This document shows, piece by piece, positions 1,613 to 17,872 of a stretch of DNA of 19,631 nucleotides (position 1 is its first letter; each line of letters begins with the position of its first letter). Under the pieces are notes generated by a model, which saw only the letters and a list, made by a program, of their open reading frames with translations, ran no database searches and was not told where the DNA came from. A program made the translations under genes and the position numbers. Location of the stretch: NCBI GenBank assembly GCA_038214545.1, contig JBBQRU010000106.1:1-19631 (forward strand), in the 5' to 3' direction. Source of the stretch: Cyanophyceae cyanobacterium (GTDB lineage: Bacteria; Cyanobacteriota; Cyanobacteriia; Cyanobacteriales; Nostocaceae).

Positions 1613-1647
1613 ACCACAACTGTCAACACCTACATTGTCAGAGTTAA
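1613..1647. repeat. 35-bp direct repeat, copy 2
   Basis: Perfect match to 1002-1036. It lies inside the spurious 5' extension of the 1595-3262 ORF. Confidence 0.9.
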
Positions 1648-1732
1648 AAATTTGTTGTATTATATATACTACAAGAGTTATAACAGTACCGAACGAATAT
1701 CTTCCATCGGGCAAGTTTGCCTATCTTTAGCC

Positions 1733-3281: not shown

Positions 3282-4043
3282 TCACTGGGCAGTCATCCCA
3301 CCATCAGCAGCAATGACGGAACCAGTCATGAATGACGCCTCATCAGATGCAAAAAGTGCAAGGTGGGCGATCTCCCGTGGCTCACCTGGGCGACCGATCG
3401 GTTGGAAGGAGTCGATTGTGCTGTATACTTTCTCCAATCCACCCAGCATCTCGGCGTGTGCGTAGTTGATCGGCGTGTCCACCCATCCAGGACAGATCAC
3501 ATTGCAACGAATGCCTTTTTTAGCGTAATCAAGGGCAACACCGCGAGTCAGCATCACAACAGCACCTTTAGAAGCCGAGTAAACTGCCAAAAACGGTTCT
3601 GAGACTAGTCCGTTGACACTAGAGATATTAACGATTGAGCCGCCACCATTATTCAGCATATACGGAATCGCTGCCCGACACCCGTAGATCGGACTTTTGA
3701 CATTCACATTAAGTGTTTTGTCAATCACTTCATCAGGAACTTCATGCAGTACGCCGGGGATGTTTACACCAGCATTGTTGACAAGCACGTCAATTTTTCC
3801 GTAAAGTTCTACACACCGCGCAACGAAAGCGTTTACTTGTAGAGGGTCGCTAACATCAGCCGCAAATGCTTCAGCTATACCACCTGCATGACGGATACTC
3901 TCAGAAGTAGCGATCGCAGTTTCACCCTTGAGGTCAACACAGAGTATTTTCCCACCTTCCTCCGCCAGCCGTTCCGCAATTGCTTTACCAATGCCAGAAC
4001 CGGCACCCGTGACAACACATGCTTTATTCTCCACTCTTCTCAT
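3282..4043 (-). CDS. SDR-family NAD(P)-dependent oxidoreductase (classical short-chain dehydrogenase)
   Basis: TGAGSGIGKA Rossmann motif, NNAG, and catalytic YSASKGAV; 253 aa. Confidence 0.85.
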   Translation of the reverse strand: MRRVENKACVVTGAGSGIGKAIAERLAEEGGKILCVDLKGETAIATSESIRHAGGIAEAFAADVSDPLQVNAFVARCVELYGKIDVLVNNAGVNIPGVLHEVPDEVIDKTLNVNVKSPIYGCRAAIPYMLNNGGGSIVNISSVNGLVSEPFLAVYSASKGAVVMLTRGVALDYAKKGIRCNVICPGWVDTPINYAHAEMLGGLEKVYSTIDSFQPIGRPGEPREIAHLALFASDEASFMTGSVIAADGGMTAQ

Positions 4044-4377
4044 ATTCTATTTCCTGAATAACCGCACTTTCCGCCATTATTAATGTTTATTGACATAAAA
4101 ATTCACCTAAAAAGCGAAATTAACAAAATATAAGTTGTGTGCCAGTATCCTTAAATACAATATTGTGATTGCAAGCTTGATTTACTAGAGTTTAGCTCTG
4201 TTGGAGTGCTTGCAATAGTTGAAATATGCCGACCAAATCAGATATCTCTTGAGAAATGTTGCAACATGTCAACTGCTAATACTTAGTATTTATGACTGCA
4301 AACTTGCGCTCGCAAATTGCGTAATATTCAGGAAAAATTTCGGTCTTTTCAATTAAACTATTTACTAGCTTGAGGGT

Positions 4378-5841
4378 TTGAGCATGACTACTAAAATAGA
4401 AGCAAGACAAAGCAATTCTGGTCTGCGTTCCGACTGCCTTCCCTTCTCCGATGTGATCGCCCAATCGATCGCTAACATTGCCCCGACGCTAACACCGACA
4501 ATAAATGCTCCATTGGTGTTTGCTACTGCTGGAGTTGGCACTTGGTTGACTTACATGTTTGCTACTATTGGCTTGATATTTGTTGGTATCAATATTAACC
4601 AATTTGCTCGCCGCTCTGCCTCACCCGGTTCTTTATATGCCTACATTGCCAGAGGATTAGGTCCAACGGCTGGTGTAATTACTGGTTGGGCATTGATTTT
4701 GGCTTACGTATTTACCGCAATGGCAGTGATGTGTGGCTTTGCCAACTATGGCGAAGTTGTACTTAGTCCGTTAGGCATTCATCCCTCACCAATATTTCTG
4801 TTTGCTATCTGTACTGGTATTGCTTGGTATATCGCCTATCGCGACATCAAGCTATCCACTGTGATCATGCTGTTGATGGAAGCAGGCTCGGTGGCGTTGA
4901 TTGTTATTTTGGGTGCGATCGTCTTGTTCAAGAAAGGTTACGCAATTGATGCCTCTCAATTATCACTCCAAGGAGCTAAGCCGGGAGGGATTATGTTGGG
5001 TTTGGTATTGGCAGTATTCAGCTTTGTGGGGTTTGAAAGTGCGACAACACTGGGAGATGAAGCCAAGCGTCCGTTACAGAATATTCCGCGTGCAGTCATC
5101 ATCAGCACTGTAATTTCTGGGTTATTCTTTGTGCTTATTTCCTACGTTGAGATCATCGGTTTTGAAGGCTTCAAAACACCGTTTGACAAAAGCGAAGCAC
5201 CACTGAGCGATCTGGCTAATATTGCGGGAGTGGGATTTTTTGGCGTATTGATTGCGATCGGGGCGATGATTAGCTTCTTTGCTTGTACTCTAGCTAGTAT
5301 CAATGCGGGAGCGCGAATCTTCTTCTCGATGGGTCGGCATGGTATTTTCCACAATGTCATTGGTCAGGCGCATGGTAGTAATGAGACACCTCATGTTGCT
5401 GTGACACTAGCAGCGATCGTCACTTTTCTGGCTCCGGCTTCCACTACCCTATTTGGCGTGAAACTCCTAGATAATTACGGCTACTTTGGCACGATCGCTA
5501 CCTATGGTTTCTTAGTTGCCTATATTTTGATTTCGATCGCTGCTCCCGTCTATCTCCACCGCGAACATCAACTACGCTTTACAGATGTCCTGTTCTCCGT
5601 TCTCGGAATCGGATTCATGATAATTCCAGTACTTGGGAGTGTGGGTCTTCCTGGTAAAGATAGTTTATTTCCCATACCTGCAGCGCCTTACAATGTCTTC
5701 CCCTACTTGTTCTTACTTTACTTGGTCGCCGGCGGTGCTTGGTTCCTAATTATACGTCTGCGTTCTCCAGAAATTATCGAGCAGATGGAAGCTGACATTG
5801 AAACCTCTCATACTCGTTTTAACGCCATGAAAAAAGTCTGA
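4378..5841 (+). CDS. APC-superfamily amino acid/amine permease (12-TM)
   Basis: 487 aa, multiple hydrophobic helices, APC-family-like N-terminal region (AQSIANIAPTLTP...GSLYAYI). GAGGG SD before the ATG. Exact substrate not inferable. Confidence 0.75.
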   Translation: MSMTTKIEARQSNSGLRSDCLPFSDVIAQSIANIAPTLTPTINAPLVFATAGVGTWLTYMFATIGLIFVGININQFARRSASPGSLYAYIARGLGPTAGVITGWALILAYVFTAMAVMCGFANYGEVVLSPLGIHPSPIFLFAICTGIAWYIAYRDIKLSTVIMLLMEAGSVALIVILGAIVLFKKGYAIDASQLSLQGAKPGGIMLGLVLAVFSFVGFESATTLGDEAKRPLQNIPRAVIISTVISGLFFVLISYVEIIGFEGFKTPFDKSEAPLSDLANIAGVGFFGVLIAIGAMISFFACTLASINAGARIFFSMGRHGIFHNVIGQAHGSNETPHVAVTLAAIVTFLAPASTTLFGVKLLDNYGYFGTIATYGFLVAYILISIAAPVYLHREHQLRFTDVLFSVLGIGFMIIPVLGSVGLPGKDSLFPIPAAPYNVFPYLFLLYLVAGGAWFLIIRLRSPEIIEQMEADIETSHTRFNAMKKV

Positions 5842-5844: not shown

Positions 5845-5938
5845 AGGGTGTGGGGTGCAGGAGAACAGAATATGCGCTTCCTCCTAGACTCTTTCCATTT
5901 GTCGAATGGGATTTCCCCACACCCACCCCTACACCCCA
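5845..5938 (+). terminator. G-rich/C-rich inverted repeat (agggtgtggggtg ... ccccacaccc) plus inner hairpins immediately after the permease stop; possible intrinsic terminator or RNA stability structure
   Basis: gggtgtgggg at 5846-5855 is complementary to ccccacaccc at 5916-5925. No clean U-run follows. Confidence 0.3.
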
Positions 5939-5983: not shown

Positions 5984-6025
5984 GTAACACTGCATACATA
6001 TTTGCAATAGCTTGAGAGATAGCGT
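5984..6025 (+). promoter_or_regulatory. NtcA-type (class II CRP-family) activated promoter: GTAacactgcaTAC-N22-TAGCGT
   Basis: GTA-N8-TAC at 5984-5997. TAN3T -10 box at 6020-6025, exactly 22 nt downstream. 30 nt upstream of the amine oxidase ATG (6055). Confidence 0.5.
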
Positions 6026-6054
6026 AGTAAAACTCATATTTGGTGAAAGGTATC

Positions 6055-7998
6055 ATGACGACCACACCTCTACACCCAGCCCCCACACAAATTGCCTCAG
6101 TTGTACATCCCCTCGAACCACTGACAGCGAAAGAAATTGCGGCGGCGGTGGCGATAGTCCGCACCGAAAAGATATTGGGCAGAAGTTTTCGCTTTGCGAC
6201 TGTTGTTTTAAAAGAACCCTCCAAGTCAGTTGTACTCAACTTCAACGATGGCGATAAAATTGAGCGCCAAGCATTTCTGATTTTATTAGATAATGCAACG
6301 GCAAAAACTTATGAGGCGATCGTCTCCATTACCAAGAGCACGATTCTCTCATGGAAAGAAATTCCTGATGTGCAACCAGGGATTATGCTAGATGAGTTTA
6401 TCGAGTGTGAAGCAGCAGTCAAAGCCAATCTGGAATTTCGTGCCGCCTTGCAGAGAAGAGGCATCACCGATATCGATTTGGTCATGGTAGACCCGTGGTC
6501 TGCAGGTAACTTTGGCATTGCCGAAGAAGCCGGATTAAGGCTTTCCCGTGCCTTATGTTGGATTCGCTCAGAACCTCATGATAATGGCTATGCTCGTCCC
6601 ATTGAAGGCGTCATCCCTGTTGTCGATCTCAACACAATGCGAGTGCTGCGGGTCGAAGATCATGGCATTATCCCGTTACCGCCGAATCCAGGTAACTACG
6701 CCCAAGATTATATCCCTCAGTTTCGTACAGATTTGCAACCTCTGGAGATTGTCCAACCGCAAGGACCTAGCTTCCACGTTGAAGGTCATAAAGTCTACTG
6801 GCAAAAGTGGCATTTCCGCATTGGATTTACTCCTCGCGAAGGATTAGTACTACACACTATTGGCTATGAAGACCAGGGACGGATTCGCCCGATTATTTAC
6901 CGAGCATCTTTGGCAGAAATGGTGGTACCATACGGCGATCCGAGTCCGGCGCACTATCGCAAAAATGCTTTTGACGTAGGTGAGTACGGTTTGGGAATGC
7001 TTGCAAACTCACTGACATTAGGCTGCGATTGTCTGGGTGAGATTCGCTACTTTGATGCCACAATGACGAATAGCCGAGGTGATGTAGCTGTGATTGCAAA
7101 TGCGGTGTGTATGCATGAAGAAGATTATGGTACTCTTTGGAAGCATGTAGACTGGCGGAATAACCATACAGAAGTTAGGCGATCGCGGCGTCTAGTAGTA
7201 TCCTTCGTGGCTACGGTTGGTAACTATGAATACGGATTCTTCTGGTATTTCTACCAAGATGGCACTATCCAACATGAGGTCAAGCTGACAGGTATAGTTA
7301 ATACTAGTGCTGTTGCGCCTGGTGTGACACCTAAGTATGGAACGCTGATTGCGCCTGAACTTAATGCTCATATTCACCAACACTTCTTTAACATGCGTTT
7401 AGATATGATGGTGGATGGTCAGAATAACTCGGTGTGCGAAGTTAACACTGAAGCTGTCCCTCGTGGTTCAGAGAATCCGCATGGTAATGCTTTCTTTGCG
7501 TCATCAACTTTATTACCAACAGAATCAGCCGCACAACGGGTAATCGATCCTTTTAGTGGGCGATATTGGAAGATTATCAATCCGTCGGTGCCGAATAGTT
7601 TAGGACAGCCTGTAGGATATAAGTTATCTCCTGGTGACAATATTTTGCCTTTTGCTGATGCTGAATCTAGTTTAATCAAGCGTGCAGGCTATATTAATAA
7701 GCACCTGTGGGTGACTCCTTACAGTCCAGATGAGATGTATCCTGCGGGAAATTATCCCAACCAACATCCAGGCGGTGATGGATTACCCAAGTGGACACAG
7801 GAAAATCGTGCGATTGAGGATACTGACTTGGTGGTATGGTACACCTTCGGACATCATCATGTTCCTCGCCCTGAAGACTGGCCAGTGATGCCTACAGGCT
7901 ATATTGGTTTTATGCTCAAACCCGTGGGGTTCTTCGATCAAAGTCCAGCAATGGATGTACCTCCTTCAGTTCCGAAAAAGGGTGCTTGCTGTAACTAA
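6055..7998 (+). CDS. Copper-containing (topaquinone) primary-amine oxidase
   Basis: TPQ consensus T-x-x-N-Y-E-Y (ATVGNYEYGFFWY). Copper His ligands HIHQHFFNMRLD and GHHHVPRPEDWPVMP. Start at ATG 6055 with GAAAGG SD; the ORF is open from TTG 6040. Confidence 0.9.
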   Translation: MTTTPLHPAPTQIASVVHPLEPLTAKEIAAAVAIVRTEKILGRSFRFATVVLKEPSKSVVLNFNDGDKIERQAFLILLDNATAKTYEAIVSITKSTILSWKEIPDVQPGIMLDEFIECEAAVKANLEFRAALQRRGITDIDLVMVDPWSAGNFGIAEEAGLRLSRALCWIRSEPHDNGYARPIEGVIPVVDLNTMRVLRVEDHGIIPLPPNPGNYAQDYIPQFRTDLQPLEIVQPQGPSFHVEGHKVYWQKWHFRIGFTPREGLVLHTIGYEDQGRIRPIIYRASLAEMVVPYGDPSPAHYRKNAFDVGEYGLGMLANSLTLGCDCLGEIRYFDATMTNSRGDVAVIANAVCMHEEDYGTLWKHVDWRNNHTEVRRSRRLVVSFVATVGNYEYGFFWYFYQDGTIQHEVKLTGIVNTSAVAPGVTPKYGTLIAPELNAHIHQHFFNMRLDMMVDGQNNSVCEVNTEAVPRGSENPHGNAFFASSTLLPTESAAQRVIDPFSGRYWKIINPSVPNSLGQPVGYKLSPGDNILPFADAESSLIKRAGYINKHLWVTPYSPDEMYPAGNYPNQHPGGDGLPKWTQENRAIEDTDLVVWYTFGHHHVPRPEDWPVMPTGYIGFMLKPVGFFDQSPAMDVPPSVPKKGACCN

Positions 7999-8092
7999 CA
8001 TTAGTTTGCTAGAGGTAGTTGACAAGATGCACGGTTCTTGCACACACTGATGAGTGCAATTTTCTGAATCTAATTTGTAAGAAGCTGATGCC

Positions 8093-9328
8093 ATGCCATT
8101 ACGGTTATTAAAGTTGGCGCTATCGAAACAACAAGCGCGAATGTTCCGGTCTCACGACCATCTCAAATCAAGTTACGATGCGGTGATTATTGGTGGCGGC
8201 GGTCACGGACTTGCTGCCGCTTATTATCTCGCTAGAGATTATGGGATGCATAATGTTGCTGTTTTAGAAAAAGGCTACATTGGCGGTGGCAATACTGGAC
8301 GGAATACCACGATTATTCGCTCGAATTATCTCACTCCGGAAGGGGTGAAATTCTACGATGAGTCAGTCCGATTGTGGCAAGATTTATCACAAGACTTTGA
8401 TCTGAATTTGTTTTACTCAAATCGCGGTCATTTCACTTTAGCTCATACTGATGCTGCTGTGCGGACGATGCGCTGGCGGGCTGAAGTTAACAAGCATTTT
8501 GGTATTGATAGCGAGTTAGTTGGTCCTGCGGAAATTCAACAGGCTTGTCCGCAAATTGATCTGTCGTGTGGTGGATATGCACCGATTTTAGGGGCGTTGT
8601 ATCATGCTCCTGGAAGCATTGCCCGACATGATGCAGTAGCTTGGGGATACGGTCGCGGTGCTGATATGCGAGGTGTTGAAATTCATCAGCAAACAGAAGT
8701 TTTGGACATTACGGTAGAAAGCGATCGCGTGACGGGAATCCAAACTAGCCGGGGATATATTTCGACTCCTCGTGTTCTTTGTGCTGTTGCTGGATCTACA
8801 CCGAGGATTTTGCAGATGGTAAACTTGCGATCGCCTCTTTATATTCATCCTCTCCAAGCAATGGTCAGTGAACCGATGAAAGCTTGGTTAGATGCGATTA
8901 TTGTGTCTGGAAGTTTGCATGTCTACGTCAGCCAGACCGCACGGGGTGAGTTGGTGATGGGGGCTTCGCTTGATCCTTATGAGTTACATTCTACGCGATC
9001 GACATTAGATTTTGTCGAAGGACTGGCGGCACATATGTTGGAATTGTTTCCGTTTTTGTCTCATGCCAAAGTCGTGCGTCAGTGGGCGGGGATGGCTGAT
9101 ATGACGCCGGATTTTGCGCCTATTATGGGTAAAACTGCGATTGAGGGGTTTTATCTGGATTCGGGTTGGGGAACTTGGGGTTTTAAGGCTACGCCTGTAT
9201 GTGGCAAAACTATGGCTTATACTGTTGCTTGCGATCGCAATCATGAGTTGATTACTGATTTTTCTTTGGATCGATTTGCTAGGTTTCAGTTGGTGGGTGA
9301 GAAGGGTGCGGCTTCGGTGGGTCATTAA
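8093..9328 (+). CDS. mgdA: Heterotetrameric sarcosine oxidase beta-subunit family (SoxB); by context N-methylglutamate dehydrogenase subunit A
   Basis: YDAVIIGGGGHGLAAAYYLA FAD dinucleotide fold, NTTIIRSNYL, ~411 aa. Followed by soxD-, soxA- and soxG-like genes. Confidence 0.8.
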   Translation: MPLRLLKLALSKQQARMFRSHDHLKSSYDAVIIGGGGHGLAAAYYLARDYGMHNVAVLEKGYIGGGNTGRNTTIIRSNYLTPEGVKFYDESVRLWQDLSQDFDLNLFYSNRGHFTLAHTDAAVRTMRWRAEVNKHFGIDSELVGPAEIQQACPQIDLSCGGYAPILGALYHAPGSIARHDAVAWGYGRGADMRGVEIHQQTEVLDITVESDRVTGIQTSRGYISTPRVLCAVAGSTPRILQMVNLRSPLYIHPLQAMVSEPMKAWLDAIIVSGSLHVYVSQTARGELVMGASLDPYELHSTRSTLDFVEGLAAHMLELFPFLSHAKVVRQWAGMADMTPDFAPIMGKTAIEGFYLDSGWGTWGFKATPVCGKTMAYTVACDRNHELITDFSLDRFARFQLVGEKGAASVGH

Positions 9329-9330
9329 TT

Positions 9331-9407
9331 TAACCGCAAAGGACACTAAGGACGCGAAGGAAGAAAGAAAGAAGGTAAAGAGAAGAAGGTAAAGAGAAGA
9401 AGGGGAG
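9331..9407 (-). repeat. Short dispersed repeat (minus-orientation copy of the gtcctt...ggtt / TTTCTTTCTTCCTT family) with a 14-nt tandem duplication gaaggtaaagagaa x2
   Basis: Reverse complement of 9331-9370 matches 13367-13402. Purine-only tract 9355-9407. Tandem 14-mer at 9371-9398. Confidence 0.7.
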
Positions 9408-9434
9408 TTTACTAATTATTTGGGACTGCTGTAT

Positions 9435-9695
9435 ATGAAAGTTATTGTTTGTCCGGTTAATGGTTCTCGTTCTGTTTCGGAGTTTGTTTGTAGTGGTGAG
9501 GTGCGTTTGATGCCTGATCCACAGGGGGTTGATGATGTAGTTTGGGCTGATTATATTTTTAATCGCAATAGTATACCGGGGATTAATACTGAATGGTGGT
9601 GTCATACACCTAGTAATACTTGGTTTGTTGCTGAACGTAATACTCAGACTGATGAATTTCTCCGGACTTATTTGTATGGTGAGGAGGTTTTATGA
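9435..9695 (+). CDS. mgdB: Sarcosine oxidase delta-subunit family (SoxD); by context N-methylglutamate dehydrogenase subunit B
   Basis: ~86 aa, N-terminus MKVIVCPVNGSRSVSEF fits the SoxD MxxIxCPxCGxRxExEF pattern. Stop overlaps the next start (ATGA). Confidence 0.7.
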   Translation: MKVIVCPVNGSRSVSEFVCSGEVRLMPDPQGVDDVVWADYIFNRNSIPGINTEWWCHTPSNTWFVAERNTQTDEFLRTYLYGEEVL

Positions 9696-12613
9696 GTCAG
9701 CGGTTGTCGCCTATTTTGGGTGAGTGGATCGATCGCCGTCGGATGATCGGTTTCACTTTTGAAGGGACTCATTTTTATGGATATGCGGGAGATACTATTT
9801 GTAGCGCTTTATGGGCTTCTGGACAATGTATCCTTGGACGGAGTTTCAAGTATCATCGTCCTCGGGGGATTTTGAGTTTTGCGAATCATGATATTAATGC
9901 TTTGATGCAGTCGGGACAGCAGCTTAGTGTCAGGGCTGATGTGACGCTGTTGGATGATGGGATGGTGCTTTCGGCGGTGAATACTAGTGGGGGGGTGATG
10001 CACGATCGCGCTAGTGTGCTCAATTTCTTCTCTGCTTTTTTACCTGTGGGATTTTACTATAAGGCATTTCATGGTAAGCGTTTATTTCCTTTTTGGGAGC
10101 GGGTGATTCGTTCGATTTCGGGGTTGGGAAAGCTGGATTTTTCTACTCCTCATGTTCGGACTGCAAAACGGTATGACTTTTGTGATGTCTTGGTAGTTGG
10201 TGGTGGTGTGTCGGGTTTGTCGGCGGGATTAGCTGCTGCTGATGCTGGTGCTGATGTGGTAATTGTGGATGAGAATTCACGGGTTGGTGGTGCGGGTGGG
10301 TATCAAATTGGTGGTGATGTTTCGCGGAGTGAAAAGACACAGGCTTTAGTTAAAGCTGTTGCTGAGCATCCACGTATACGTGTTTATATTGAGACTTTGG
10401 CAGCAGCGTATTATATTGATGGTTGGGTGCCTTTAGTCGATCGCGATCGCATGACGAAAATGCGAGCAAAAGCGACGATTATTGCTAGTGGCGCTTACGA
10501 ACAGCCTGCGGTTTTTCGCAATAATGACCTTCCGGGTGTAATGTTAGCATCAGCGGCGCAACGGTTAATTTATCGCTATGCTGTGAAACCTTTTAATCGC
10601 GCGGTTGTCTTAGTTGCTAACAATGATGGTTATCGGGCGGCGGTTGATTTAATTCAGCACGGTGTCACCATTAATGCAATTATTGATTTACGCGATCGCT
10701 ATCCAGAAAATCAGCTCACGCAGACTTTGAAAAACAAAGGTGTGGTAATTCTGACTCAACACTGTATTTATGAGGCGACAAATTTAGGTGGACATGGTGT
10801 GACGGCGGCGATCGTTTGTCCGCTAGATGCAAATGGTTTGCCAAATCCTCGATTAAAGCAAACAATAGCTTGTGATGGTATTGTTATGAGTGTTGGTTGG
10901 GCACCGGCGGCAAATTTGCTGTATCAAGCTGGGACTAAAATGGGCTGGAGCGAGCATTTGCAGCAATTCGTGCCAGATATTTTACCACTAAGTGTTTTTG
11001 CTTGCGGACGCGTCAATGGTGTGTTCGAGTTTACACAAAAACTCTTAGACGGTCATCGCGCTGGACTAGAAGCGGCGGCTCATTTGGGTTTGGTAGAAAA
11101 AGCTGAGATAAATATCGTACCGGAATCAGAGTGTCCATCACATCCGTGGGCGATCGTTGAGCATCCTGTAGGTAAGAATTTTGTTGATTTTGATGAAGAT
11201 TTGCAATATAAAGACCTTACCGATGCGATCGCGGAAGGATTTGATAATATTGAGTTGCTGAAACGCTACACTACTGTCGGGATGGGACCGAGCCAGGGTA
11301 AACATTCCAATATGAATGCTCTGCGGATATTGGCTCGGATTACAGGTAAATCTCCAAAAGAGGTGGGTACAACGACGGCAAGACCTTTTTTCCATCCTGT
11401 ACCATTGTCTCATTTAGCGGGGCGAGGTTTTACACCCGAACGACGCACGCCATTACATAGTCGTCATGCGGCAATGGGCGCAAAATTTATGTTAGCAGGT
11501 GTGTGGCAACGACCTGAATATTATGCGCGATCGCGCGACCGTGAGGAATGTATTCGCACTGAAGCCGAGGCAGTCCGAAATAGTGTAGGTATAATTGATG
11601 TCAGCACGTTAGGTAAACTAGAAGTGCGCGGTGCTGATTCGGCTGAGTTTCTAGAACGTGTTTACACCGGACGCTATAGTAATCTTAAAGTTGGCATGAC
11701 TCGCTATGCCTTGATGCTTGATGAAGCTGGCATTGTGATAGATGATGGTGTGATTGCAAGGTTGTCGCCAGACCATTTTTACTTTACTACGACAACTTCA
11801 GGCGCAGCCAATATTTATCGGGAATTATCTCGTTTGAATACAATTTGGCGATTAGATTGCGGTATGGTCAATTTAACGGGGGCGCGATCGGCAATCAATC
11901 TTGCTGGTCCTTTTGCTCGTAAAGTATTGGTTAAATTGATGCAGATGGATCTTTCTAGCACTGCTTTTCCCTATCTGGGTGTACGTGAAGCCAGAATTGC
12001 AGACATTCCGGCGGTTTTGATGCGGGTTGGGTTTGTCGGTGAATGGGGCTACGAAATACACGTTGCGGCTGAATCGGTTCCGGCGTTGTGGGATGCACTC
12101 GAAGATGCCGGAAAAAACTTCGATATTTTGCCCTTTGGCGTTGAAGCACAACGGTTGCTGAGACTGGAAAAAGGACACTTAATTATTGGTCAAGATACCG
12201 ATGCGCTGACTACACCAAGAGAAGTAAATTTAGAATGGGCAGTCAAAATGGATAAACCGTTTTTCATCGGTCAGCGTAGTTTACAAGCGATCGCCAAACA
12301 ACCACTCAAGCAAAAGCTAGTAGGATTTATGCTGGAATCACTTCCAGAAACACCGCCGCAAGAGTGTCATTTGGTAATCGAAAATAATGAGATTGCTGGT
12401 CGAGTGACAAGTATTGCTTTTAGTCCCGCTTTAAAGCAATTCATTGGACTTGCTTATGTCAAGCCAGAAATGGCAGAGAAAGGCAATTATTTTTCAATTC
12501 GTTTATCGGATGGAGCGTTAGTCAAGGCGATCGTTACTCCTACCCCATTTTACGATCCAGATAACTTACGGCAAAAAGCCGAAACCGCCATAATGGAGGA
12601 AGTTACTGCATGA
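9692..12613 (+). CDS. mgdC: Sarcosine oxidase alpha-subunit family (SoxA, with C-terminal GcvT-like folate-binding domain); by context N-methylglutamate dehydrogenase subunit C
   Basis: 973 aa. VVGGGVSGLSAGLAAADAGADVVIVDE dinucleotide fold. C-terminal aminomethyltransferase-like region (GFVGEWGYEIH...). Coupled to flanking genes by ATGA overlaps. Confidence 0.8.
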   Translation: MSQRLSPILGEWIDRRRMIGFTFEGTHFYGYAGDTICSALWASGQCILGRSFKYHRPRGILSFANHDINALMQSGQQLSVRADVTLLDDGMVLSAVNTSGGVMHDRASVLNFFSAFLPVGFYYKAFHGKRLFPFWERVIRSISGLGKLDFSTPHVRTAKRYDFCDVLVVGGGVSGLSAGLAAADAGADVVIVDENSRVGGAGGYQIGGDVSRSEKTQALVKAVAEHPRIRVYIETLAAAYYIDGWVPLVDRDRMTKMRAKATIIASGAYEQPAVFRNNDLPGVMLASAAQRLIYRYAVKPFNRAVVLVANNDGYRAAVDLIQHGVTINAIIDLRDRYPENQLTQTLKNKGVVILTQHCIYEATNLGGHGVTAAIVCPLDANGLPNPRLKQTIACDGIVMSVGWAPAANLLYQAGTKMGWSEHLQQFVPDILPLSVFACGRVNGVFEFTQKLLDGHRAGLEAAAHLGLVEKAEINIVPESECPSHPWAIVEHPVGKNFVDFDEDLQYKDLTDAIAEGFDNIELLKRYTTVGMGPSQGKHSNMNALRILARITGKSPKEVGTTTARPFFHPVPLSHLAGRGFTPERRTPLHSRHAAMGAKFMLAGVWQRPEYYARSRDREECIRTEAEAVRNSVGIIDVSTLGKLEVRGADSAEFLERVYTGRYSNLKVGMTRYALMLDEAGIVIDDGVIARLSPDHFYFTTTTSGAANIYRELSRLNTIWRLDCGMVNLTGARSAINLAGPFARKVLVKLMQMDLSSTAFPYLGVREARIADIPAVLMRVGFVGEWGYEIHVAAESVPALWDALEDAGKNFDILPFGVEAQRLLRLEKGHLIIGQDTDALTTPREVNLEWAVKMDKPFFIGQRSLQAIAKQPLKQKLVGFMLESLPETPPQECHLVIENNEIAGRVTSIAFSPALKQFIGLAYVKPEMAEKGNYFSIRLSDGALVKAIVTPTPFYDPDNLRQKAETAIMEEVTA

Positions 12614-13251
12614 AAACCCCACTCCGCCTTAGCCCCGTACACGATGCACTCCAAAAACTCAACGGTTCGTGGCGTGAATTAAACGGAATGCCAACGCTAT
12701 TTTCTCGCCCAGAAGACGCAGTCCATTCCACTCAATTAGGTATTGCCGACTTATCATTCCTGACACGCTTTGGCATCAAAGGAAAAAATGCCGCCAATTG
12801 GTTAATACAACAAGGAATCTCAGTACCCGATCGCCCTAATTCCTGGCATACACTACCAGAAGGAGGAATCATCGCTCGCCTAGGTTTAACCGAATTTCTC
12901 ATCGAAGACAGTATCACCTCCACCATAGCACCACAATTAACCGCAGCCTGTCAACACCCACCCACCAAAGTTTACCCAGTATTGCGCCAAGACTTAGCGA
13001 TCGCCCTAACAGGCACAGCCATCCCCGAACTCTTACGCCAAACCTGCAACATCAACTTTCAGGCACTTCCTCTCACAGAACACCCCGTCATCATAACCAC
13101 CGCCATCGGCGTAAATGTCACCATCATACCCAGCCAACCATGCTATAGAATTTGGTGTGATTACACCTATGGCGAATACGTTTGGCAAACATTATTAGCG
13201 ATCGTACAACAACTAGGCGGTGATGCGATCGGAGTAGAACAATATCTCTAA
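12610..13251 (+). CDS. mgdD: Sarcosine oxidase gamma-subunit family (SoxG); by context N-methylglutamate dehydrogenase subunit D
   Basis: 213 aa. ATGA overlap with the alpha subunit. Size and position typical for SoxG. Confidence 0.65.
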   Translation: MKTPLRLSPVHDALQKLNGSWRELNGMPTLFSRPEDAVHSTQLGIADLSFLTRFGIKGKNAANWLIQQGISVPDRPNSWHTLPEGGIIARLGLTEFLIEDSITSTIAPQLTAACQHPPTKVYPVLRQDLAIALTGTAIPELLRQTCNINFQALPLTEHPVIITTAIGVNVTIIPSQPCYRIWCDYTYGEYVWQTLLAIVQQLGGDAIGVEQYL

Positions 13252-13280
13252 AACTACCCACCTTCCACCAAAAAAATAAC

Positions 13281-13402
<122 letters not shown>

Positions 13403-13419
13403 TTCGTTAATTTATTAAA

Positions 13420-14748
13420 ATGACACCAACAGAAGCCAAAAAATTCTTAACAGACCATCAAATCAAATATGTCCTAGCGCAATTTGTCGATATACATGGC
13501 GTAGCCAAAACCAAAGCAGTACCCGCATCGCATTTTGACGACATACTCAACCCAGGCGCAGGCTTTGCCGGATTTGCCCTTTGGGGACTCGGAATGCAAC
13601 CCAACAGCCCCGACTTTCTCGCTGTAGGAGACCCGACAACACTAACATTAGTCCCGTGGATGCCCGGATATGCGCGAATGGCGTGTGTCGGACATGTTCT
13701 CGGTCAACCCTATGGATATGATGCACGATTTGTGTTAATGCAGCAAATCGAGCGACTAAAACAAAAAGGGTGGATAATGTACACCGGATTAGAGCCAGAA
13801 TTCTCATTGCTAAGTAGAGACGAAAATGGCAAAGTAGATTTAAGCGATCGCACCGACACATTAGACAAACCCTGCTACGACTATAAAGGTTTATCACGAA
13901 GTCGTGCATATTTAGAAAAATTAGTTAGCAGTTTGCAAACCGTTGGTTTTGACGTTTACCAAATCGACCATGAAGACGCCAACGGACAGTTTGAAATTAA
14001 CTACACTTATACAGATTGTTTAACCTCCGCCGATCGCTACATCTTTTTCAAAATGGCAGCTTCCGAAATCGCCAAAGAAATGGGATTAATTTGCTCCTTC
14101 ATGCCCAAACCATTTGCTAATCGCAGTGGTAACGGAATGCACATGCACATCTCAATTTCTGACGGCAAAACGAACTTATTTGCCGATGACAGCGACTCAA
14201 AAAAATTAGGATTATCCCAACTAGCATACCACTTTCTCGGTGGATTATTAGCTCACGCTCCGGCAATGACAGCGATTTGTGCGCCAACAATTAACTCTTA
14301 CAAGCGACTTGTAGTGGGACGTTCATTAAGTGGCGCAACTTGGGCACCAGCCTACATCGGCTATGGTGATAACAATCGCTCCAGTATGGTGAGAATTCCC
14401 GGCGGTCGCTTAGAATTTCGGCTAGCTGATGGCTCATGCAACCCTTATTTAGCTGCCGCTGTAGCAATCGCCGCCGGGTTAGATGGTATTGAGAAAAAAA
14501 TTGATCCAGGCGAACCACAGAATATTAATTTGTACGCCCTATCCGATATAGAATTAAAACAAAAAGGTATTCATACTTTACCTCAAAGTTTAAAAGAAGC
14601 CGTTGACGCCCTAGAATCTGATGAAGTAATCAAAGCTGCTTTAGGAGTTTTAGCTGATGAATTTATTAGCCTCAAACGGATGGAGTGGATTGAATACATG
14701 CGTCACGTATCCGATTGGGAAATACAGCGCTACTTAGAGTTTTTCTAA
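13420..14748 (+). CDS. gmaS: Glutamine synthetase family protein (type I-like, ~442 aa); by context gamma-glutamylmethylamide synthetase
   Basis: GS catalytic-domain motifs [17 protein letters not shown] and NSYKRLV...SWAP-like. Lies between soxBDAG-like and gltB-fragment genes, as in NMG clusters. Confidence 0.75.
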
Positions 14749-14759
14749 CAAGAGATTAA

Positions 14760-14905
14760 CGAACCACAAAGGACGCGCCAGCGTAGCGAAGCCGTCAGGC
14801 GTTAGGACACGAAGGAATACATAGCAAACTCTAACTTTCTTCTTTCTTCTCTTCGCGTTCTAACGCCTGACGGCTTCGCTACGCTGGTGTGTCCTTTGTG
14901 GTTCG
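14760..14905. repeat. 46-bp near-perfect inverted repeat (two inverted copies of the dispersed repeat, each with a 29-nt insert) with a ~54-nt loop; long RNA hairpin or MITE-like element
   Basis: 14760-14805 cgaaccacaaaggacgcgccagcgtagcgaagccgtcaggcgttag. Reverse complement of 14860-14905 is cgaaccacaaaggacacaccagcgtagcgaagccgtcaggcgttag. The 2 differences are both G vs A, so G:U-compatible in RNA. Confidence 0.85.
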
Positions 14906-14964
14906 GTAAAAGTATTTTTCAAAAATCAAATTAGAATACAATATCTATTGAAAGGGATTTTGCT

Positions 14965-15858
14965 ATGTGTGGAATCGTAGGATTGCTAATTAAAAACCCC
15001 GAATTAAGAAGTAGTTTAGGTGAGTTAATGGTACCAATGCTAATTGGAATGAGCGCACGCGGACCAGATTCAGCCGGACTAGCTGTGTTCACAGAAATGT
15101 TAGGCGAGCAATATCGAAAATACAGTCTTTATTCAACCGTACCTGACTTTAACTGGTCAAAAATTGCCCAAGACTTTGAAAAATATTTCCACGTTACCCC
15201 AACAATGGAAATTAATGGCAATCATGCAATTCTAGTTTCCGATTTGCTTCCCGAAAAAGTCAAGCACTGGTTTGGACAATATCCTGATTTGCATGTTCTT
15301 TCTACAGGTCGAGCCATCGATCTTTACAAAGACACAGGATCGCCTGTGGAGGTTGTCTCACGCTACGATTTCAAATCGCTTAAAGGTTCTCATGTTGTCG
15401 GTCACACGCGCATGGCGACGGAATCAGCAGTCACCCCAGCACATGCTCACCCATTCACAGCGGGTGAAGATTTTTGTCTGGTGCATAATGGTTCGCTGTC
15501 GAATCCACATCAAATTCGCCGTCAACTAGAGCCACTGGGGATTCATTTTGAGACAGATAATGATACTGAAGCAGCTTGTCGATTTTTAGAGTGGCGGATG
15601 CGCGAAGGTGATGATTTGGAAGCTGCTATTGAGAAAGGTTTTGAAGCATTAGATGGTTTTTATACTTTCTTGATGGGAACGGCTGATAAGTTAGCCTTGG
15701 TACGCGATCCTTTTGCTTGTAAGCCGGCGGTGGTTGCGGAGACTGATGATTATGTAGCGATCGCGTCTGAGTTTCGCTCCTTAGCGCATTTACCTGATGT
15801 TAAAAATGCAACTATCTATGAACCTGCACCTGAGGAAATGTACGTATGGAAAGCGTGA
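14965..15858 (+). CDS. mgsA: Class II (Ntn) glutamine amidotransferase domain protein, GltB N-terminal-like; by context N-methylglutamate synthase subunit A
   Basis: MCGIVGLL N-terminal nucleophile Cys2. 297 aa. AAGGGA SD before the ATG. Followed by the other two GltB-like fragments. Confidence 0.75.
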   Translation: MCGIVGLLIKNPELRSSLGELMVPMLIGMSARGPDSAGLAVFTEMLGEQYRKYSLYSTVPDFNWSKIAQDFEKYFHVTPTMEINGNHAILVSDLLPEKVKHWFGQYPDLHVLSTGRAIDLYKDTGSPVEVVSRYDFKSLKGSHVVGHTRMATESAVTPAHAHPFTAGEDFCLVHNGSLSNPHQIRRQLEPLGIHFETDNDTEAACRFLEWRMREGDDLEAAIEKGFEALDGFYTFLMGTADKLALVRDPFACKPAVVAETDDYVAIASEFRSLAHLPDVKNATIYEPAPEEMYVWKA

Positions 15859-16523
15859 CGTTTGATTTGGCAGGAACGCCTTTGCGTCAGGTAAATCATT
15901 TTTTACACCACGACAAGAGCCAGCACATCCAGATTCTTAACCCTGATGGGACACATAATATTGCTGTTGGCATTGATGCGACAATTGATGTGGAAATTCA
16001 CGGACATACAGGGTATTACGCTGCCAGTATGAATAAATTGGCAAATGTCACTATTTTTGGCAATGCTGGTACAGGTGTGGCGGAAAATATGATGTCGGGT
16101 CGAGTGCATGTGAAAGGATTTGCGTCAGTATCAGCGGGAGCCTCAGCACATGGCGGATTGCTGGTAATCGATGGCGATGCTGGTTTGCGTTGCGGAATTT
16201 CTCTCAAAGGTGGAGATATTGTGGTTGGTGGGAATGTGGGTAGTTTTAGTGCATTTATGGCACAAGCAGGAAGAATTGTTGTCTGTGGTGATGCTGGCGA
16301 TGCATTAGGCGACTCTATTTATGAAGCAGTGATTTACGTGCGGGGTAAAATTAAGTCCTTAGGTGCTGATGCTCAAATCGAGCCGATGTCTGAGGCAGAT
16401 TACAACGCCGTGAGCGAATTACTAGATAAAGCCGGATTTTCTTACAATCCAAGAGACTTTCAGCGCATCGCCGGTGCGAAGCAATTATATCACTGGAATG
16501 CTGATGCTAATCAGGAGTATTAA
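15846..16523 (+). CDS. mgsB: GXGXG-motif protein (glutamate synthase alpha-subunit C-terminal domain-like); by context N-methylglutamate synthase subunit B
   Basis: Repeated G-x-G-x-G beta-helix motifs (GNAGTGVAENM, VIDGDAGLRCG, VVGGNVGSF, VVCGDAGDALG). 225 aa. 13-nt overlap with mgsA. Confidence 0.75.
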   Translation: MESVTFDLAGTPLRQVNHFLHHDKSQHIQILNPDGTHNIAVGIDATIDVEIHGHTGYYAASMNKLANVTIFGNAGTGVAENMMSGRVHVKGFASVSAGASAHGGLLVIDGDAGLRCGISLKGGDIVVGGNVGSFSAFMAQAGRIVVCGDAGDALGDSIYEAVIYVRGKIKSLGADAQIEPMSEADYNAVSELLDKAGFSYNPRDFQRIAGAKQLYHWNADANQEY

Positions 16524-16525
16524 TT

Positions 16526-17872
16526 ATGAATATGAATCAATCGTCTCGCGAAGAATCTTGGGGATACGATCGCCGCATTCTCAGCTACATTCAAAATGCA
16601 GCAGCACACGGTTTGTATGAAATTCGCGGTTTAGGTGCAAAGCGTCGATTACCGCATTTCGACGATCTGGTGTTTTTGGGTGCATCGATGACACGCTATC
16701 CTCTCGAAGGCTACCGCGAGAAGTGCGTCACAAAAACGGTTCTTGGCACTCGCTACGCGACAAAACCGATTGAACTCGACATTCCAATTACGATCGCTGG
16801 CATGAGTTTCGGTTCGCTTTCGGCTAATGTTAAACAAGCGTTAGGACTCGCAGCGACTGAATTAGGCACCTCGACCACAACGGGCGATGGTGGTATGACT
16901 TCGGAAGAAAGACTTTCATCCCAGACGTTGATTTATCAATGTTTGCCTTCTCGGTATGGTTTCAACCCTGATGACCTGAGAAAAGCGGATGCGATTGAAA
17001 TTGTTATCGGTCAAGGTGCAAAACCAGGTGGTGGGGGTATGTTATTGGGGCAAAAAATCAATCCCCGCGTTGCCGAAATGCGAACCTTACCGGAAGGTGT
17101 AGATCAACGTTCTGCTTGTCGTCATCCTGACTGGACGGGTCCTGACGACCTGACTATTAAAATTCAGTCGTTGCGGGAACTGACTGATTGGGAAAAACCT
17201 ATATATGTCAAAGTGGGTGCATCGCGCACATTTAACGATGTCAAACTTGCAGTCCACTCCGGTGCGGATGTGATTGTGGTGGATGGGATGCAAGGCGGAA
17301 CTGCAGCTACCCAATCTGTGTTTATTGAGCATGTGGGTATACCTACCCTTGCGGCGGTACGTCAGGCTGTGGAGGCTCTGGAGGAGATGAATATGAAAGG
17401 GAAAGTTCAATTAATTATATCGGGTGGGATTCGTACTGGTGCAGATGTGGCGAAAGCGATCGCAATGGGTGCAGATGCTGTCTCTATTGGACAAGGCGTT
17501 TTAGTCGCAATGGGTTGCAATAGCGAAACTTATATTCAAGATGGCAAGCATTATTCCGCTGTTGAGGATTATAACGCATTAGGAACGGTTCCTGGATATT
17601 GCCATCATTGTCATACTGGAAAATGTCCGGTCGGTATAACAACGCAAGATGAAATTTTAGAGAAACGCCTAGAACCACAAGTTGGGGCGCGTCGAGTTAA
17701 GAATTATTTGCAAACTTTAAATATGGAGTTAACGGCGATCGCGCGTGCTTGCGGGAAGCAAAACATTCATCACCTCGAACGCGAAGATTTAGTCGCGCTG
17801 ACCATCGAAGCCGCCGCAATGGCGCACTTACCTCTTGCTGGTACCTCCTGGATTCCTGGAGTGACAAACTAA
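16526..17872 (+). CDS. mgsC: FMN-binding glutamate synthase central-domain-like protein; by context N-methylglutamate synthase subunit C
   Basis: GltB FMN-domain signatures (IVIGQGAKPGGGGML, VIVVDGMQGGTAAT, ISGGIRTGADVAKAIAMGAD). 448 aa. CAGGAG SD before the ATG. Confidence 0.8.
   Translation: MNMNQSSREESWGYDRRILSYIQNAAAHGLYEIRGLGAKRRLPHFDDLVFLGASMTRYPLEGYREKCVTKTVLGTRYATKPIELDIPITIAGMSFGSLSANVKQALGLAATELGTSTTTGDGGMTSEERLSSQTLIYQCLPSRYGFNPDDLRKADAIEIVIGQGAKPGGGGMLLGQKINPRVAEMRTLPEGVDQRSACRHPDWTGPDDLTIKIQSLRELTDWEKPIYVKVGASRTFNDVKLAVHSGADVIVVDGMQGGTAATQSVFIEHVGIPTLAAVRQAVEALEEMNMKGKVQLIISGGIRTGADVAKAIAMGADAVSIGQGVLVAMGCNSETYIQDGKHYSAVEDYNALGTVPGYCHHCHTGKCPVGITTQDEILEKRLEPQVGARRVKNYLQTLNMELTAIARACGKQNIHHLEREDLVALTIEAAAMAHLPLAGTSWIPGVTN

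What the first reader, a model, noticed from the sequence alone, without database searches (positions are those of the whole stretch)
5984..7998. Copper/TPQ amine oxidase driven by a canonical NtcA-type promoter, with an APC permease immediately upstream of the NMG cluster
GTA-N8-TAC (5984-5997) followed after exactly 22 nt by a TAN3T -10 box (tagcgt, 6020-6025). This is the architecture of NtcA-activated cyanobacterial promoters, placed 30 nt before a copper amine oxidase gene. Amine oxidases release NH3 from primary amines. With the adjacent permease and the downstream methylamine module, this suggests a nitrogen-regulated amine-scavenging locus that offers two routes: oxidative deamination and the NMG pathway.
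Basis: partly seen in the sequence, partly recalled or inferred. Interest (0 to 1): 0.55.

Follow-up and report, generated by a model that had tools for sequence, protein, structure and literature searches.

The report
Nitrogen-controlled promoter before cyanobacterial amine oxidase
A cyanobacterial copper amine oxidase gene is preceded by the promoter layout used by the nitrogen-starvation regulator NtcA, and the same layout recurs before this gene in many distantly related cyanobacteria, so the enzyme most likely recovers ammonia from amines when nitrogen is scarce.

Summary
GTAACACTGCATAC lies at 5984-5997, then 22 nt, then TAGCGT at 6020-6025. The amine oxidase ATG is at 6055. A bare GTA-N8-TAC is not remarkable here (6 found, 2.8 expected), but the full composite is (2 found, 0.09 expected).

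The main evidence is comparative. Among 48 cyanobacterial orthologues, GT-N10-AC followed by TAN3T occurs 11 times at exactly 22 nt, against 0.8 expected. Other spacings stay at background. The motif precedes 3 of 340 other genes in the same loci and none of 25 Chloroflexi orthologues.

The protein is a true TPQ copper amine oxidase with no obvious signal peptide. I conclude this is a new predicted member of the known class of NtcA-activated class II promoters. It has not been tested experimentally.

Three further points:
- A second NtcA box at 4145-4158 has -10-like hexamers 22 nt away on both strands, facing the permease and a partner dehydrogenase.
- In relatives, a 14-bp palindrome (CTTGTyATrACAAG) sits at a fixed position between the NtcA box and the -10 hexamer of amine genes. 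This suggests a second, unknown regulator.
- The link to the NMG cluster is specific to this lineage, and that cluster has no canonical NtcA box.

The parts
5984..5997 (+). NtcA-type binding box GTAACACTGCATAC (GTA-N8-TAC), centred at about -41.5 from the predicted TSS
   Evidence: Read directly. In the 93%-identical relative L081 the GTA and TAC triplets are kept and the only change lies inside N8. The same box type occurs upstream of CuAO orthologues.
6001..6014 (+). Degenerate remnant (TTTGCAATAGCTTG) of the CTTGTyATrACAAG palindrome, which occupies this position in related promoters
   Evidence: Position-by-position comparison with L001, L012, L082 and L081. By my count it matches about 5 of the 10 core positions, so it may no longer function here.
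6020..6025 (+). -10 hexamer TAGCGT (TAN3T), 22 nt after the box
   Evidence: L081 has TAACGT, so TAN3T is kept despite a substitution. L012 and L070 have the identical TAGCGT.
6031..6033 (+). Predicted transcription start, giving a 5' UTR of about 23 nt
   Evidence: Inferred from the box centre plus 41.5 nt, using the canonical geometry in PMC3898017. Not measured. The UTR differs from L081 at one position.
6055..7998 (+). Copper/TPQ primary-amine oxidase, 647 aa, with no obvious N-terminal signal peptide
   Evidence: Pfam Cu_amine_oxid E 2e-168 plus N2/N3 domains. NCBIfam NF008559 scores 1008 bits against a cut-off of 651. AGAO 1av4 matches at E 3e-167, with the NYEY, HQH, third-His and FDVGEY motifs aligned.
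4384..5841 (+). APC-superfamily permease, the likely amine importer. It is a recurrent neighbour of the CuAO.
   Evidence: Pfam AA_permease. It falls below every specific NCBIfam cut-off. It is adjacent to the CuAO in L005, L011, L024, L081, L082/83 and L098-L101, and lies 1.1 kb upstream beyond a GNAT gene in L096/97.
4145..4158 (.). Second NtcA-type box, GTATCCTTAAATAC, in the divergent SDR/permease intergenic region
   Evidence: It is kept in L081 with one change inside N8.
4162..4175 (+). Palindrome-like element ATTGTGATTGCAAG (8 of 10 core positions) between the box and the -10 hexamer of the permease promoter
   Evidence: It has the same layout as the promoters of GS-like genes in L082, L013, L023 and L025.
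4181..4186 (+). -10-like hexamer TTTACT, 22 nt after the box, facing the permease (predicted TSS about 4193)
   Evidence: The same TTTACT at the same 22-nt spacing occurs in L081, L082, L013, L023, L025 and L030, and in 8 metagenome hits. It is not TAN3T.
4117..4122 (-). -10 hexamer TAATTT (read on the minus strand), 22 nt after the box, facing the SDR gene (predicted TSS about 4110)
   Evidence: L081 has TAGATT here, which is still TAN3T (read from the alignment).
3282..4043 (-). Short-chain dehydrogenase/reductase, possibly acting on the aldehyde product
   Evidence: Pfam adh_short. An 83%-identical copy lies in a same-strand CuAO-APC-SDR array in L011, and a 95%-identical copy in L081. Its role is inferred.
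8093..17872 (+). N-methylglutamate pathway cluster (mgdABCD-like, gmaS-like, mgsABC-like). This is context, not shown to belong to the NtcA unit.
   Evidence: Domain content. Only 94 nt and no terminator-like site separate it from the CuAO. It is inverted in L081. Only a weak box (GTTCTTGCACACAC, 23 nt, TAATTT) is present at 8034.

Best explanation
The box at 5984-5997 and the -10 hexamer at 6020-6025 form an NtcA-activated class II promoter for a cytoplasmic copper/TPQ primary-amine oxidase in a Nostocales-like cyanobacterium.

Proposed mechanism:
- When combined nitrogen is scarce, 2-oxoglutarate rises.
- The NtcA dimer binds the box centred at -41.5 and recruits RNA polymerase to a promoter that has a -10 hexamer but no -35 hexamer.
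- Transcription starts near 6032.
- The enzyme oxidises a primary amine, imported by the adjacent APC permease, to an aldehyde, H2O2 and NH3. The NH3 enters GS-GOGAT.

The box at 4145-4158 probably puts the permease (+ strand) and a partner SDR (- strand) under the same control.

Shown here: the sequence architecture, its non-random recurrence at orthologues, and the enzyme family.

Inferred: NtcA binding, the TSS, the nitrogen response, the substrate, and the roles of the permease and the SDR.
For: 1. The architecture matches the published definition exactly: GTAN8TAC centred at about -41.5 plus a TAN3T -10 hexamer (PMC3898017 and PMC5714215; sequence).

2. The composite motif occurs twice in the window against 0.09 expected, P(>=2) = 0.004.

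3. In the 300 nt upstream of 48 cyanobacterial CuAO orthologues (65-74% aa identity), GT-N10-AC followed by TAN3T occurs 11 times at exactly 22 nt. Expectation is 0.82, and 0 of 500 shuffles reach 11. Spacings 14-30 other than 22 give 0-2 hits each, and the opposite strand gives 0 at 22.

4. The background in real sequence is 3 of 340 other ORFs in the same loci (Fisher P = 1e-8), and 0 of 25 Chloroflexi orthologues have the motif (P = 0.006).

5. Further strict instances are L096/97 (GTAGTATTTCGTAC, 22 nt, TAGCTT) and the L082/L098-type loci, where the GS-like, CuAO and APC genes each carry their own strict box.

6. In the 93% relative L081, the substitutions in the box and the -10 hexamer fall in N8 and at a variable position of TAN3T.

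7. Positions I did not select for also follow the NtcA consensus: A after TAC in 12 of 16 sites and a T-rich 5' flank.

8. The host is cyanobacterial. HIP1 occurs 17 times against 0.17 expected, and the best named Band7 homologues are Calothrix, Nostoc and Chlorogloeopsis. NtcA is universal in cyanobacteria (PMC3898017).

9. The enzyme identity is secure.
Against: There are no experimental data of any kind for this locus or its orthologues.

About three quarters of cyanobacterial orthologues show no motif within 300 nt. Some of them sit inside operons or have other neighbours.

The orthologue promoters are not fully independent. L001 and L012, and less clearly L002, share a visibly homologous spacer.

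The base before the box is G, not the preferred T.

No convincing terminator separates the permease from the CuAO. The hairpin at 5848-5935 has z = -1.5, and the terminator scan found nothing in the permease-CuAO gap. Read-through from the upstream promoter may therefore contribute.

The literature I could search does not mention NtcA control of a cyanobacterial amine oxidase, so there is no independent confirmation.
Confidence: 0.8

Rival explanations
1. The CuAO is transcribed mainly as part of a permease-CuAO (and possibly NMG) operon from the promoter at about 4193. The 5984 box is then only a minor internal promoter or a decaying relic.
For: No significant terminator lies between the permease and the CuAO. 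The 213-nt gap includes a lineage-specific insertion absent from L081. APC and CuAO are adjacent and co-oriented in several relatives.
Against: In relatives where the CuAO stands alone or is divergently transcribed (L001, L002, L012, L096), the same box and -10 layout lies directly upstream of the CuAO. In the GS-CuAO-APC loci each gene has its own box. The box, the -10 hexamer and the UTR are kept in L081. This rival can hold alongside the main explanation.
Confidence: 0.25
2. The promoter is real, but a different factor or a different mode operates. Examples are another CRP-family protein, NtcA acting as a repressor, or control dominated by a substrate-sensing regulator that binds the palindrome region.
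For: A conserved palindrome lies between the box and the -10 hexamer in relatives, so these promoters receive at least one further input. GTA-N8-TAC sites can also be repressive when placed differently (PMC3898017).
Against: The box sits at the activator position (-41.5), not over the -35 to +1 region. The strict 22-nt phasing to the -10 hexamer is the signature of class II activation. In the window's own CuAO promoter the palindrome is degenerate.
Confidence: 0.1
3. The motif is a chance match with no regulatory role.
For: Single GTA-N8-TAC matches are expected about 3 times per window. If the spacing is relaxed to 20-24 nt, two composite hits are not rare (P = 0.08).
Against: The motif recurs at exactly 22-nt spacing across orthologues: 11 against 0.8 expected, 0 of 500 shuffles, and 3 of 340 background genes. 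The functional positions are kept in L081.
Confidence: 0.04

Closest known systems
Canonical NtcA-activated class II promoters of cyanobacteria (glnA, urtA, nirA, ntcB, amt1)
   Same: A GTA-N8-TAC box centred at about -41.5, a TAN3T -10 hexamer 22 nt downstream, no -35 hexamer, and a target gene that scavenges combined nitrogen (PMC3898017, PMC5714215).
   Different: The target is a copper amine oxidase, which the NtcA regulon literature I could search does not report. NtcA binding and the TSS are untested. Related promoters carry an extra 14-bp palindrome between the box and the -10 hexamer.
Arthrobacter globiformis phenylethylamine oxidase (AGAO, PDB 1av4)
   Same: It is the closest solved structure (E 3e-167 over residues 17-646). 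It has the same N2-N3-catalytic domain order. The TPQ precursor motif, the copper histidines and the catalytic Asp align. Neither protein has a leader, consistent with a cytoplasmic location.
   Different: The substrate of the window enzyme is unknown. Its genomic partners (methylamine and NMG genes, GS-like genes, Tdm-like and Amt-like genes in relatives) point to small aliphatic or methylated amines rather than arylethylamines. That is an inference.
Methylamine/primary-amine oxidases used for nitrogen or carbon acquisition (Hansenula polymorpha methylamine oxidase, PDB 1a2v; phytoplankton cell-surface amine oxidases, Palenik & Morel 1991 as cited in PMC4478897)
   Same: Copper amine oxidases that release NH3 from primary amines so the cell can use them as a nitrogen source. 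1a2v matches at E 7e-127. The phytoplankton case is cited.
   Different: Those enzymes are peroxisomal or extracellular and belong to eukaryotes. Their regulation is unrelated to NtcA. In Prymnesium the CuAO transcript did not respond to nitrogen limitation.
E. coli TynA and Klebsiella MaoA periplasmic amine oxidases
   Same: Same enzyme family (1d6u matches at E 1e-107).
   Different: Those enzymes are about 727 aa, the window protein aligns only from their residue 88 onward, and the equivalog model is not met (NF011285 433 bits against a cut-off of 1278). From my own knowledge, they are exported and are controlled by AraC-type activators and catabolite control, not by a nitrogen regulator.

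Membership tests
NtcA-activated class II promoter | Consensus NtcA box GTA-N8-TAC | tested here: met
   GTAACACTGCATAC at 5984-5997.
NtcA-activated class II promoter | A -10 hexamer TAN3T about 22 nt downstream, so that the box is centred near -41.5, with no -35 hexamer | tested here: met
   TAGCGT at 6020-6025 after exactly 22 nt. Definition from PMC3898017. The only sigma-70-like match nearby, TTGAGA-17-CATATT, scores 9 of 12, and such matches are no more frequent here than in shuffles.
NtcA-activated class II promoter | Conservation of the box and its phasing at orthologous genes beyond chance | tested here: met
   11 hits at 22 nt against 0.82 expected, 0 of 500 shuffles, 3 of 340 other genes, 0 of 25 Chloroflexi.
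NtcA-activated class II promoter | Host encodes NtcA | tested here: inconclusive
   ntcA is not in the 19.6-kb contig. The contig is cyanobacterial by HIP1 count and best homologues, and NtcA is reported as universal in cyanobacteria.
NtcA-activated class II promoter | NtcA binds the site (2-oxoglutarate-stimulated), and transcription from the mapped TSS depends on NtcA and nitrogen status | not testable with these tools
   Needs EMSA or ChIP, 5'-RACE or dRNA-seq, and an ntcA mutant.
Copper/TPQ amine oxidase (EC 1.4.3.21) | Cu_amine_oxid catalytic domain with N2 and N3 domains, scoring above the curated family cut-off | tested here: met
   PF01179 561 bits. NF008559 1008 bits against a cut-off of 651.
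Copper/TPQ amine oxidase (EC 1.4.3.21) | TPQ precursor Tyr in an N-Y-D/E-Y motif, three copper-ligand His residues, and the catalytic Asp | tested here: met
   In the alignment to AGAO 1av4, GNYEYGFFWY aligns with GNYDYGFYWY, IHQHFF with FHQHIF, GHHHVPR with GLTHFPR, and FDVGEY with FDTGEY. Which residue plays which role comes from my knowledge of AGAO.
Copper/TPQ amine oxidase (EC 1.4.3.21) | Amine oxidase activity and substrate range | not testable with these tools
   Needs an enzyme assay.
N-methylglutamate pathway cluster as part of the same nitrogen-regulated unit | Conserved linkage and shared NtcA-type promoter with the CuAO | tested here: not met
   Linkage occurs only in the window and L081, where the cluster is inverted and flanked by an XRE/cupin regulator. 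There is no canonical box before mgdA, gmaS or mgsA, only GTT-N8-CAC, 23 nt, TAATTT at 8034. Read-through from the CuAO remains possible.

The most novel reading that the evidence does not exclude
Cyanobacteria may have an undescribed amine-utilisation regulon. Its members would be the CuAO, the APC permease, GS-like gamma-glutamyl-amine-type ligases, and in some lineages Tdm-like and Amt-like genes.

Many of the promoters in this regulon would integrate two inputs at fixed phase. One is NtcA at -41.5, reporting nitrogen status. The other is an unknown, unlinked regulator that binds the 14-bp palindrome CTTGTyATrACAAG, which spans about -31 to -18. That regulator is perhaps a substrate-responsive repressor.

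The window would be a member of this regulon. Its permease promoter keeps the operator (8 of 10 core positions), while its CuAO promoter has largely lost it.
Probability: 0.45. Interest if true: 0.62.

Novelty: new member of a known kind. Interest (0 to 1): 0.47.

Why it matters
NtcA regulons have been defined mainly in model strains, and the regulon literature I could search never mentions this enzyme. Finding the canonical NtcA architecture before copper amine oxidase genes in several cyanobacterial lineages predicts that many filamentous and mat-forming cyanobacteria oxidise primary amines to obtain ammonia when nitrogen is limiting. That route is barely considered in cyanobacterial nitrogen budgets, and it also produces H2O2 and aldehydes inside the cell.

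The prediction can be tested cheaply with a clear yes-or-no result: the TSS, an EMSA, qPCR with and without combined nitrogen, and growth on amines. The phased palindrome offers a route to a second, unknown regulator of organic-nitrogen use.

Tried and rejected
1. TTGCAA(TA)GCTTGA, which is repeated in the window at about 4170, 4211 and 6003, looked like a local operator. It is not conserved in the CuAO promoter of L081. I replaced it with the CTTGT-N4-ACAAG palindrome seen across distant loci.

2. The permease-CuAO hairpin (5848-5935) as a terminator: z = -1.5 and no T tract. It is also a lineage-specific insertion. Rejected as evidence for separate transcription units.

3. A riboswitch or known RNA in the UTRs: Rfam returned only tRNA matches and spurious miRNA hits on the long inverted repeat.

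4. PlmA/CGRE1 as the palindrome-binding system: CGRE1 is 21-22 nt with GTTG or GTTA flanks, which is a different motif.

5. A regulator gene linked to the palindrome-bearing clusters: none was found in L025 or L013, or in the gene tables of L082 and L096-L101. L081 has an XRE/cupin gene, but it lies next to the NMG cluster.

6. Identifying the source record by exact protein look-up failed. A plasmid search found only a 77.6% match to the mgdA-like gene on a Kovacikia megaplasmid.

7. Literature searches for NtcA together with amine oxidase, and for the NMG pathway in cyanobacteria, found nothing directly relevant.
Full report
**1. Observation**

The sequence is as described.
- GTAACACTGCATAC occupies 5984-5997.
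- 22 nt follow (5998-6019).
- TAGCGT, a TAN3T hexamer, occupies 6020-6025.
- The first ATG of the long ORF is at 6055.

The mechanical ORF list begins at TTG 6040, but orthologues align from the ATG. With the box centred at -41.5, the predicted TSS is about 6032 and the 5' UTR is about 23 nt.

GTA-N8-TAC occurs 6 times against 2.8 expected, which is not significant. The composite with a TAN3T hexamer at exactly 22 nt occurs twice in the window, against 0.09 expected (P(>=2) = 0.004). With the spacing relaxed to 20-24 nt, P(>=2) = 0.08.

**2. Genes and host**

Pfam and NCBIfam give this map:

| Coordinates | Strand | Assignment |
|---|---|---|
| 1314-1583 | + | ParE-like |
| 1595-3262 | + | SPFH/Band7 |
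| 3282-4043 | - | SDR |
| 4384-5841 | + | APC-type permease |
| 6055-7998 | + | copper amine oxidase |
| 8093-13251 | + | mgdABCD-like |
| 13420-14748 | + | gmaS-like |
| 14965-17872 | + | mgsABC-like |
| 17886-18656 | - | SDR |
| 18776-19297 | - | GNAT |

The oxidase scores 1008 bits on NF008559 (cut-off 651). It aligns over its whole length to Arthrobacter globiformis AGAO (E 3e-167). The NYEY TPQ motif, the HQH and third-His copper ligands and the FDVGEY catalytic Asp are all present. It has no obvious signal peptide, so the substrate must be imported. That fits the adjacent permease.

The contig is cyanobacterial:
- HIP1 (GCGATCGC) occurs 17 times against 0.17 expected.
- The best named Band7 homologues are Calothrix, Nostoc and Chlorogloeopsis at 82-84% identity.

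**3. Comparative test of the promoter**

A genome-collection scan returned 80 loci with CuAO orthologues at 65-74% identity. Roughly two thirds are cyanobacterial and the rest are Chloroflexi.

Strict GTA-N8-TAC, 22 nt, TAN3T lies upstream of the gene in L001 (Oculatella), L002, L012 and L038. It also occurs in the 75%-identical L096/97.

With the core relaxed to GT-N10-AC, which ChIP-seq found to be the most conserved part (PMC3898017), the results across 48 cyanobacterial upstream regions are:
- 11 hits at exactly 22 nt, against 0.82 expected, with 0 of 500 shuffles reaching 11.
- Other spacings from 14 to 30 give 0-2 hits each, which is background.
- The opposite strand gives none at 22.

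Background in real sequence is 3 of 340 other long ORFs in the same loci (Fisher P = 1e-8). None of the 25 Chloroflexi orthologues has the motif.

Positions I did not select for also follow the NtcA consensus: A after TAC in 12 of 16 sites, a T-rich 5' flank, and TAG at the start of the -10 hexamer in 11 of 16.

In the nearest relative (L081, 93% aa identity), the box changes only inside N8 and the -10 hexamer changes from TAGCGT to TAACGT. The sharp preference for 22 nt is what class II activation predicts. Chance or composition does not explain it.

**4. The surrounding module**

A second box, GTATCCTTAAATAC (4145-4158), lies in the divergent SDR/permease intergenic region.
- On the minus strand it is followed after 22 nt by TAATTT, facing the SDR. 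L081 has TAGATT there, still TAN3T.
- On the plus strand it is followed after 22 nt by TTTACT, facing the permease.

TTTACT is not TAN3T. However, the identical hexamer at the identical spacing recurs at NtcA boxes before GS-like genes in L082, L013, L023, L025 and L030, and in 8 of 12 metagenome hits.

Synteny supports a functional module:
- CuAO and APC are adjacent in L005, L011, L024, L081, L082/83 and L098-L101.
- L011 has CuAO-APC-SDR on one strand, and its SDR is 83% identical to the window's.
- L082 and L098-L101 have GS-like-CuAO-APC, each gene with its own strict NtcA box.
- In Nodosilinea/Leptolyngbya-type loci the CuAO sits among a GS-like ligase, an ABC binding protein, a PhyH-like or acyl-CoA-dehydrogenase-like gene, a Tdm-like gene and an Amt-like transporter.

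These partners point to small or methylated amines as substrates. That is an inference.

**5. A second conserved element**

In L001 and L012 (CuAO), L082 (APC) and L013 and L023 (GS-like), a perfect palindrome CTTGT-N4-ACAAG lies 3 nt after the NtcA box and 5 nt before the -10 hexamer. L082 (GS-like and CuAO), L025, L030 and L032 carry near-perfect copies (8-9 of 10 core positions) at the same place.
- Among 394 strict-box strands in all loci, the palindrome score is bimodal. Fifteen score at least 8 of 10, against my estimate of about 0.5 expected.
- Exact copies number 4 against 0.3 expected in cyanobacterial loci, and 0 in Chloroflexi.
- A metagenome scan for GTAN8TACANNCTTGTYATNACAAG gave 12 hits. 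Eight carry TTTACT in phase, and six of those precede the GS-like gene. One further hit precedes a CuAO, and three look like chance matches.
- In Nodosilinea-type clusters, copies also precede the Tdm-like, Amt-like and PhyH-like genes without a canonical NtcA box.

In the window, the permease promoter keeps 8 of 10 core positions. The CuAO promoter keeps about 5 of 10, and L081's keeps 8 of 10.

I read this as the operator of a second, unlinked regulator that overlaps the polymerase-binding region. No regulator gene is linked, and the PlmA CGRE1 motif is different. From memory, the palindrome resembles GntR-type GT...AC operators. That is a lead, not a test.

**6. The NMG link**

The NMG cluster is adjacent to the CuAO only in the window and in L081. 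In L081 it is inverted, converges on the CuAO, and has an XRE/cupin regulator divergent from mgdA. Part of the mgdA upstream sequence moved with the cluster.

No canonical NtcA box precedes any NMG gene. Only a weak GTT-N8-CAC, 23 nt, TAATTT is present at 8034.

In the window, 94 nt and no terminator-like site separate the CuAO from mgdA. Read-through from the nitrogen-regulated promoter is therefore possible but unproven.

**7. Comparison with what is known, and novelty**

The promoter meets every sequence-level criterion of a canonical NtcA-activated promoter. The biochemical criteria cannot be tested here. The enzyme is a clear member of the TPQ copper amine oxidases.

I found no paper that links NtcA to a cyanobacterial amine oxidase. 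The closest functional analogues are amine oxidases used for nitrogen acquisition in yeasts and phytoplankton.

**8. Verdict**

It is best classed as a new predicted member of a known kind of promoter. Confidence is about 0.8 that the site is a functional NtcA-dependent promoter.

The phased palindrome is the most novel lead. I give it a probability of about 0.45 of being a true second-regulator operator.

Noticed in passing
window 4162-4175 and 6001-6014; L001 9896, L012 4418, L082 4525/5943/7958, L013 4560, L023 442, L025 7232-7245, L030, L032; L084-L095: A 14-bp palindrome, CTTGTyATrACAAG, sits 3 nt after NtcA boxes and 5 nt before the -10 hexamer of the CuAO, APC permease and GS-like genes in several cyanobacterial lineages. 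In Nodosilinea-type clusters it also precedes Tdm-like, Amt-like and PhyH-like genes without an NtcA box. It is probably the operator of an unknown, unlinked regulator.
   Followed up: partly
window 4145-4158 with 4117-4122 (-) and 4181-4186 (+): A single palindromic NtcA box has -10-like hexamers exactly 22 nt away on both strands: TAATTT towards the SDR and TTTACT towards the permease. This suggests one NtcA dimer serving two divergent promoters. Both arrangements are kept in L081.
   Followed up: partly
window 8093-17872 compared with L081 11953-21399: The whole NMG cluster is inverted relative to the 93%-identical relative. There it converges on the CuAO, and an XRE/cupin (PuuR-like architecture) regulator is divergent from mgdA. 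That regulator gene is absent from the window.
   Followed up: partly
window 13284-13379 and 9364-9403: A (TTCT/CTTT)n microsatellite of about 24 copies lies between mgdD and gmaS. A purine-rich 14-nt tandem repeat between mgdA and the SoxD-like gene is partly complementary to it (71-nt arms, 75% complementary).
   Followed up: no
window 14756-14909, 13389-13416: An inverted repeat with 59-nt arms (92% complementary, 36-nt loop) lies between gmaS and mgsA. Its terminal GTGTCCTTTGTGGTTCG motif also occurs just upstream of gmaS, so gmaS is bracketed by copies of the repeat. It could be a MITE-like element, a processing site or a terminator. Rfam gives only spurious miRNA matches.
   Followed up: no
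window about 5848-5935: A G/C-rich, imperfectly self-complementary insertion of about 66 nt (GGGTGTGGGGTG...CACACCCACCCCTACACCCC) lies just after the permease stop and is absent from L081. Its fold is not significantly stable (z = -1.5).
   Followed up: yes
window 1002-1036 and 1613-1647: A perfect 35-nt direct repeat, 611 nt apart, brackets the ParE-like gene (1314-1583). The second copy lies at the 5' end of the Band7 ORF, whose N-terminus is not covered by its homologues (91-92% query coverage). This suggests a toxin-antitoxin module inserted with duplication of the target.
   Followed up: no
window 525-592 and 595-666: Rfam finds two adjacent tRNA matches. ARAGORN calls only the second, as tRNA-Ile with the unusual anticodon AAT.
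   Followed up: no
window 8034-8076: A weak NtcA-like arrangement (GTTCTTGCACACAC, 23 nt, TAATTT) lies 17 nt before the mgdA start. It is non-canonical at both triplets and was not found in L081.
   Followed up: partly
L082, L098, L099-L101 (metagenome contigs): In the clade 75-77% identical to the window's CuAO, a gmaS-type GS-like gene, the CuAO and the APC permease form a co-oriented triad. Each gene is preceded by its own NtcA box, palindrome and -10 hexamer.
   Followed up: yes
L013, L015, L017, L025, L029 and similar loci (Nodosilinea/Leptolyngbya): The CuAO lies in a putative methylated-amine cluster. The other members are a roughly 500-aa GS-like ligase (below all NCBIfam cut-offs), an ABC binding protein, a PhyH-like or acyl-CoA-dehydrogenase-like gene, a Tdm-like protein (797 bits against a cut-off of 1100) and an Amt-family transporter.
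   Followed up: partly
NZ_CP083583.1 79126-80235 (Kovacikia minuta CCNUW1 1.2-Mb plasmid): This is the only plasmid-collection match to the window: 77.6% nucleotide identity to the mgdA-like gene. NMG-type genes therefore also occur on a cyanobacterial megaplasmid.
   Followed up: no
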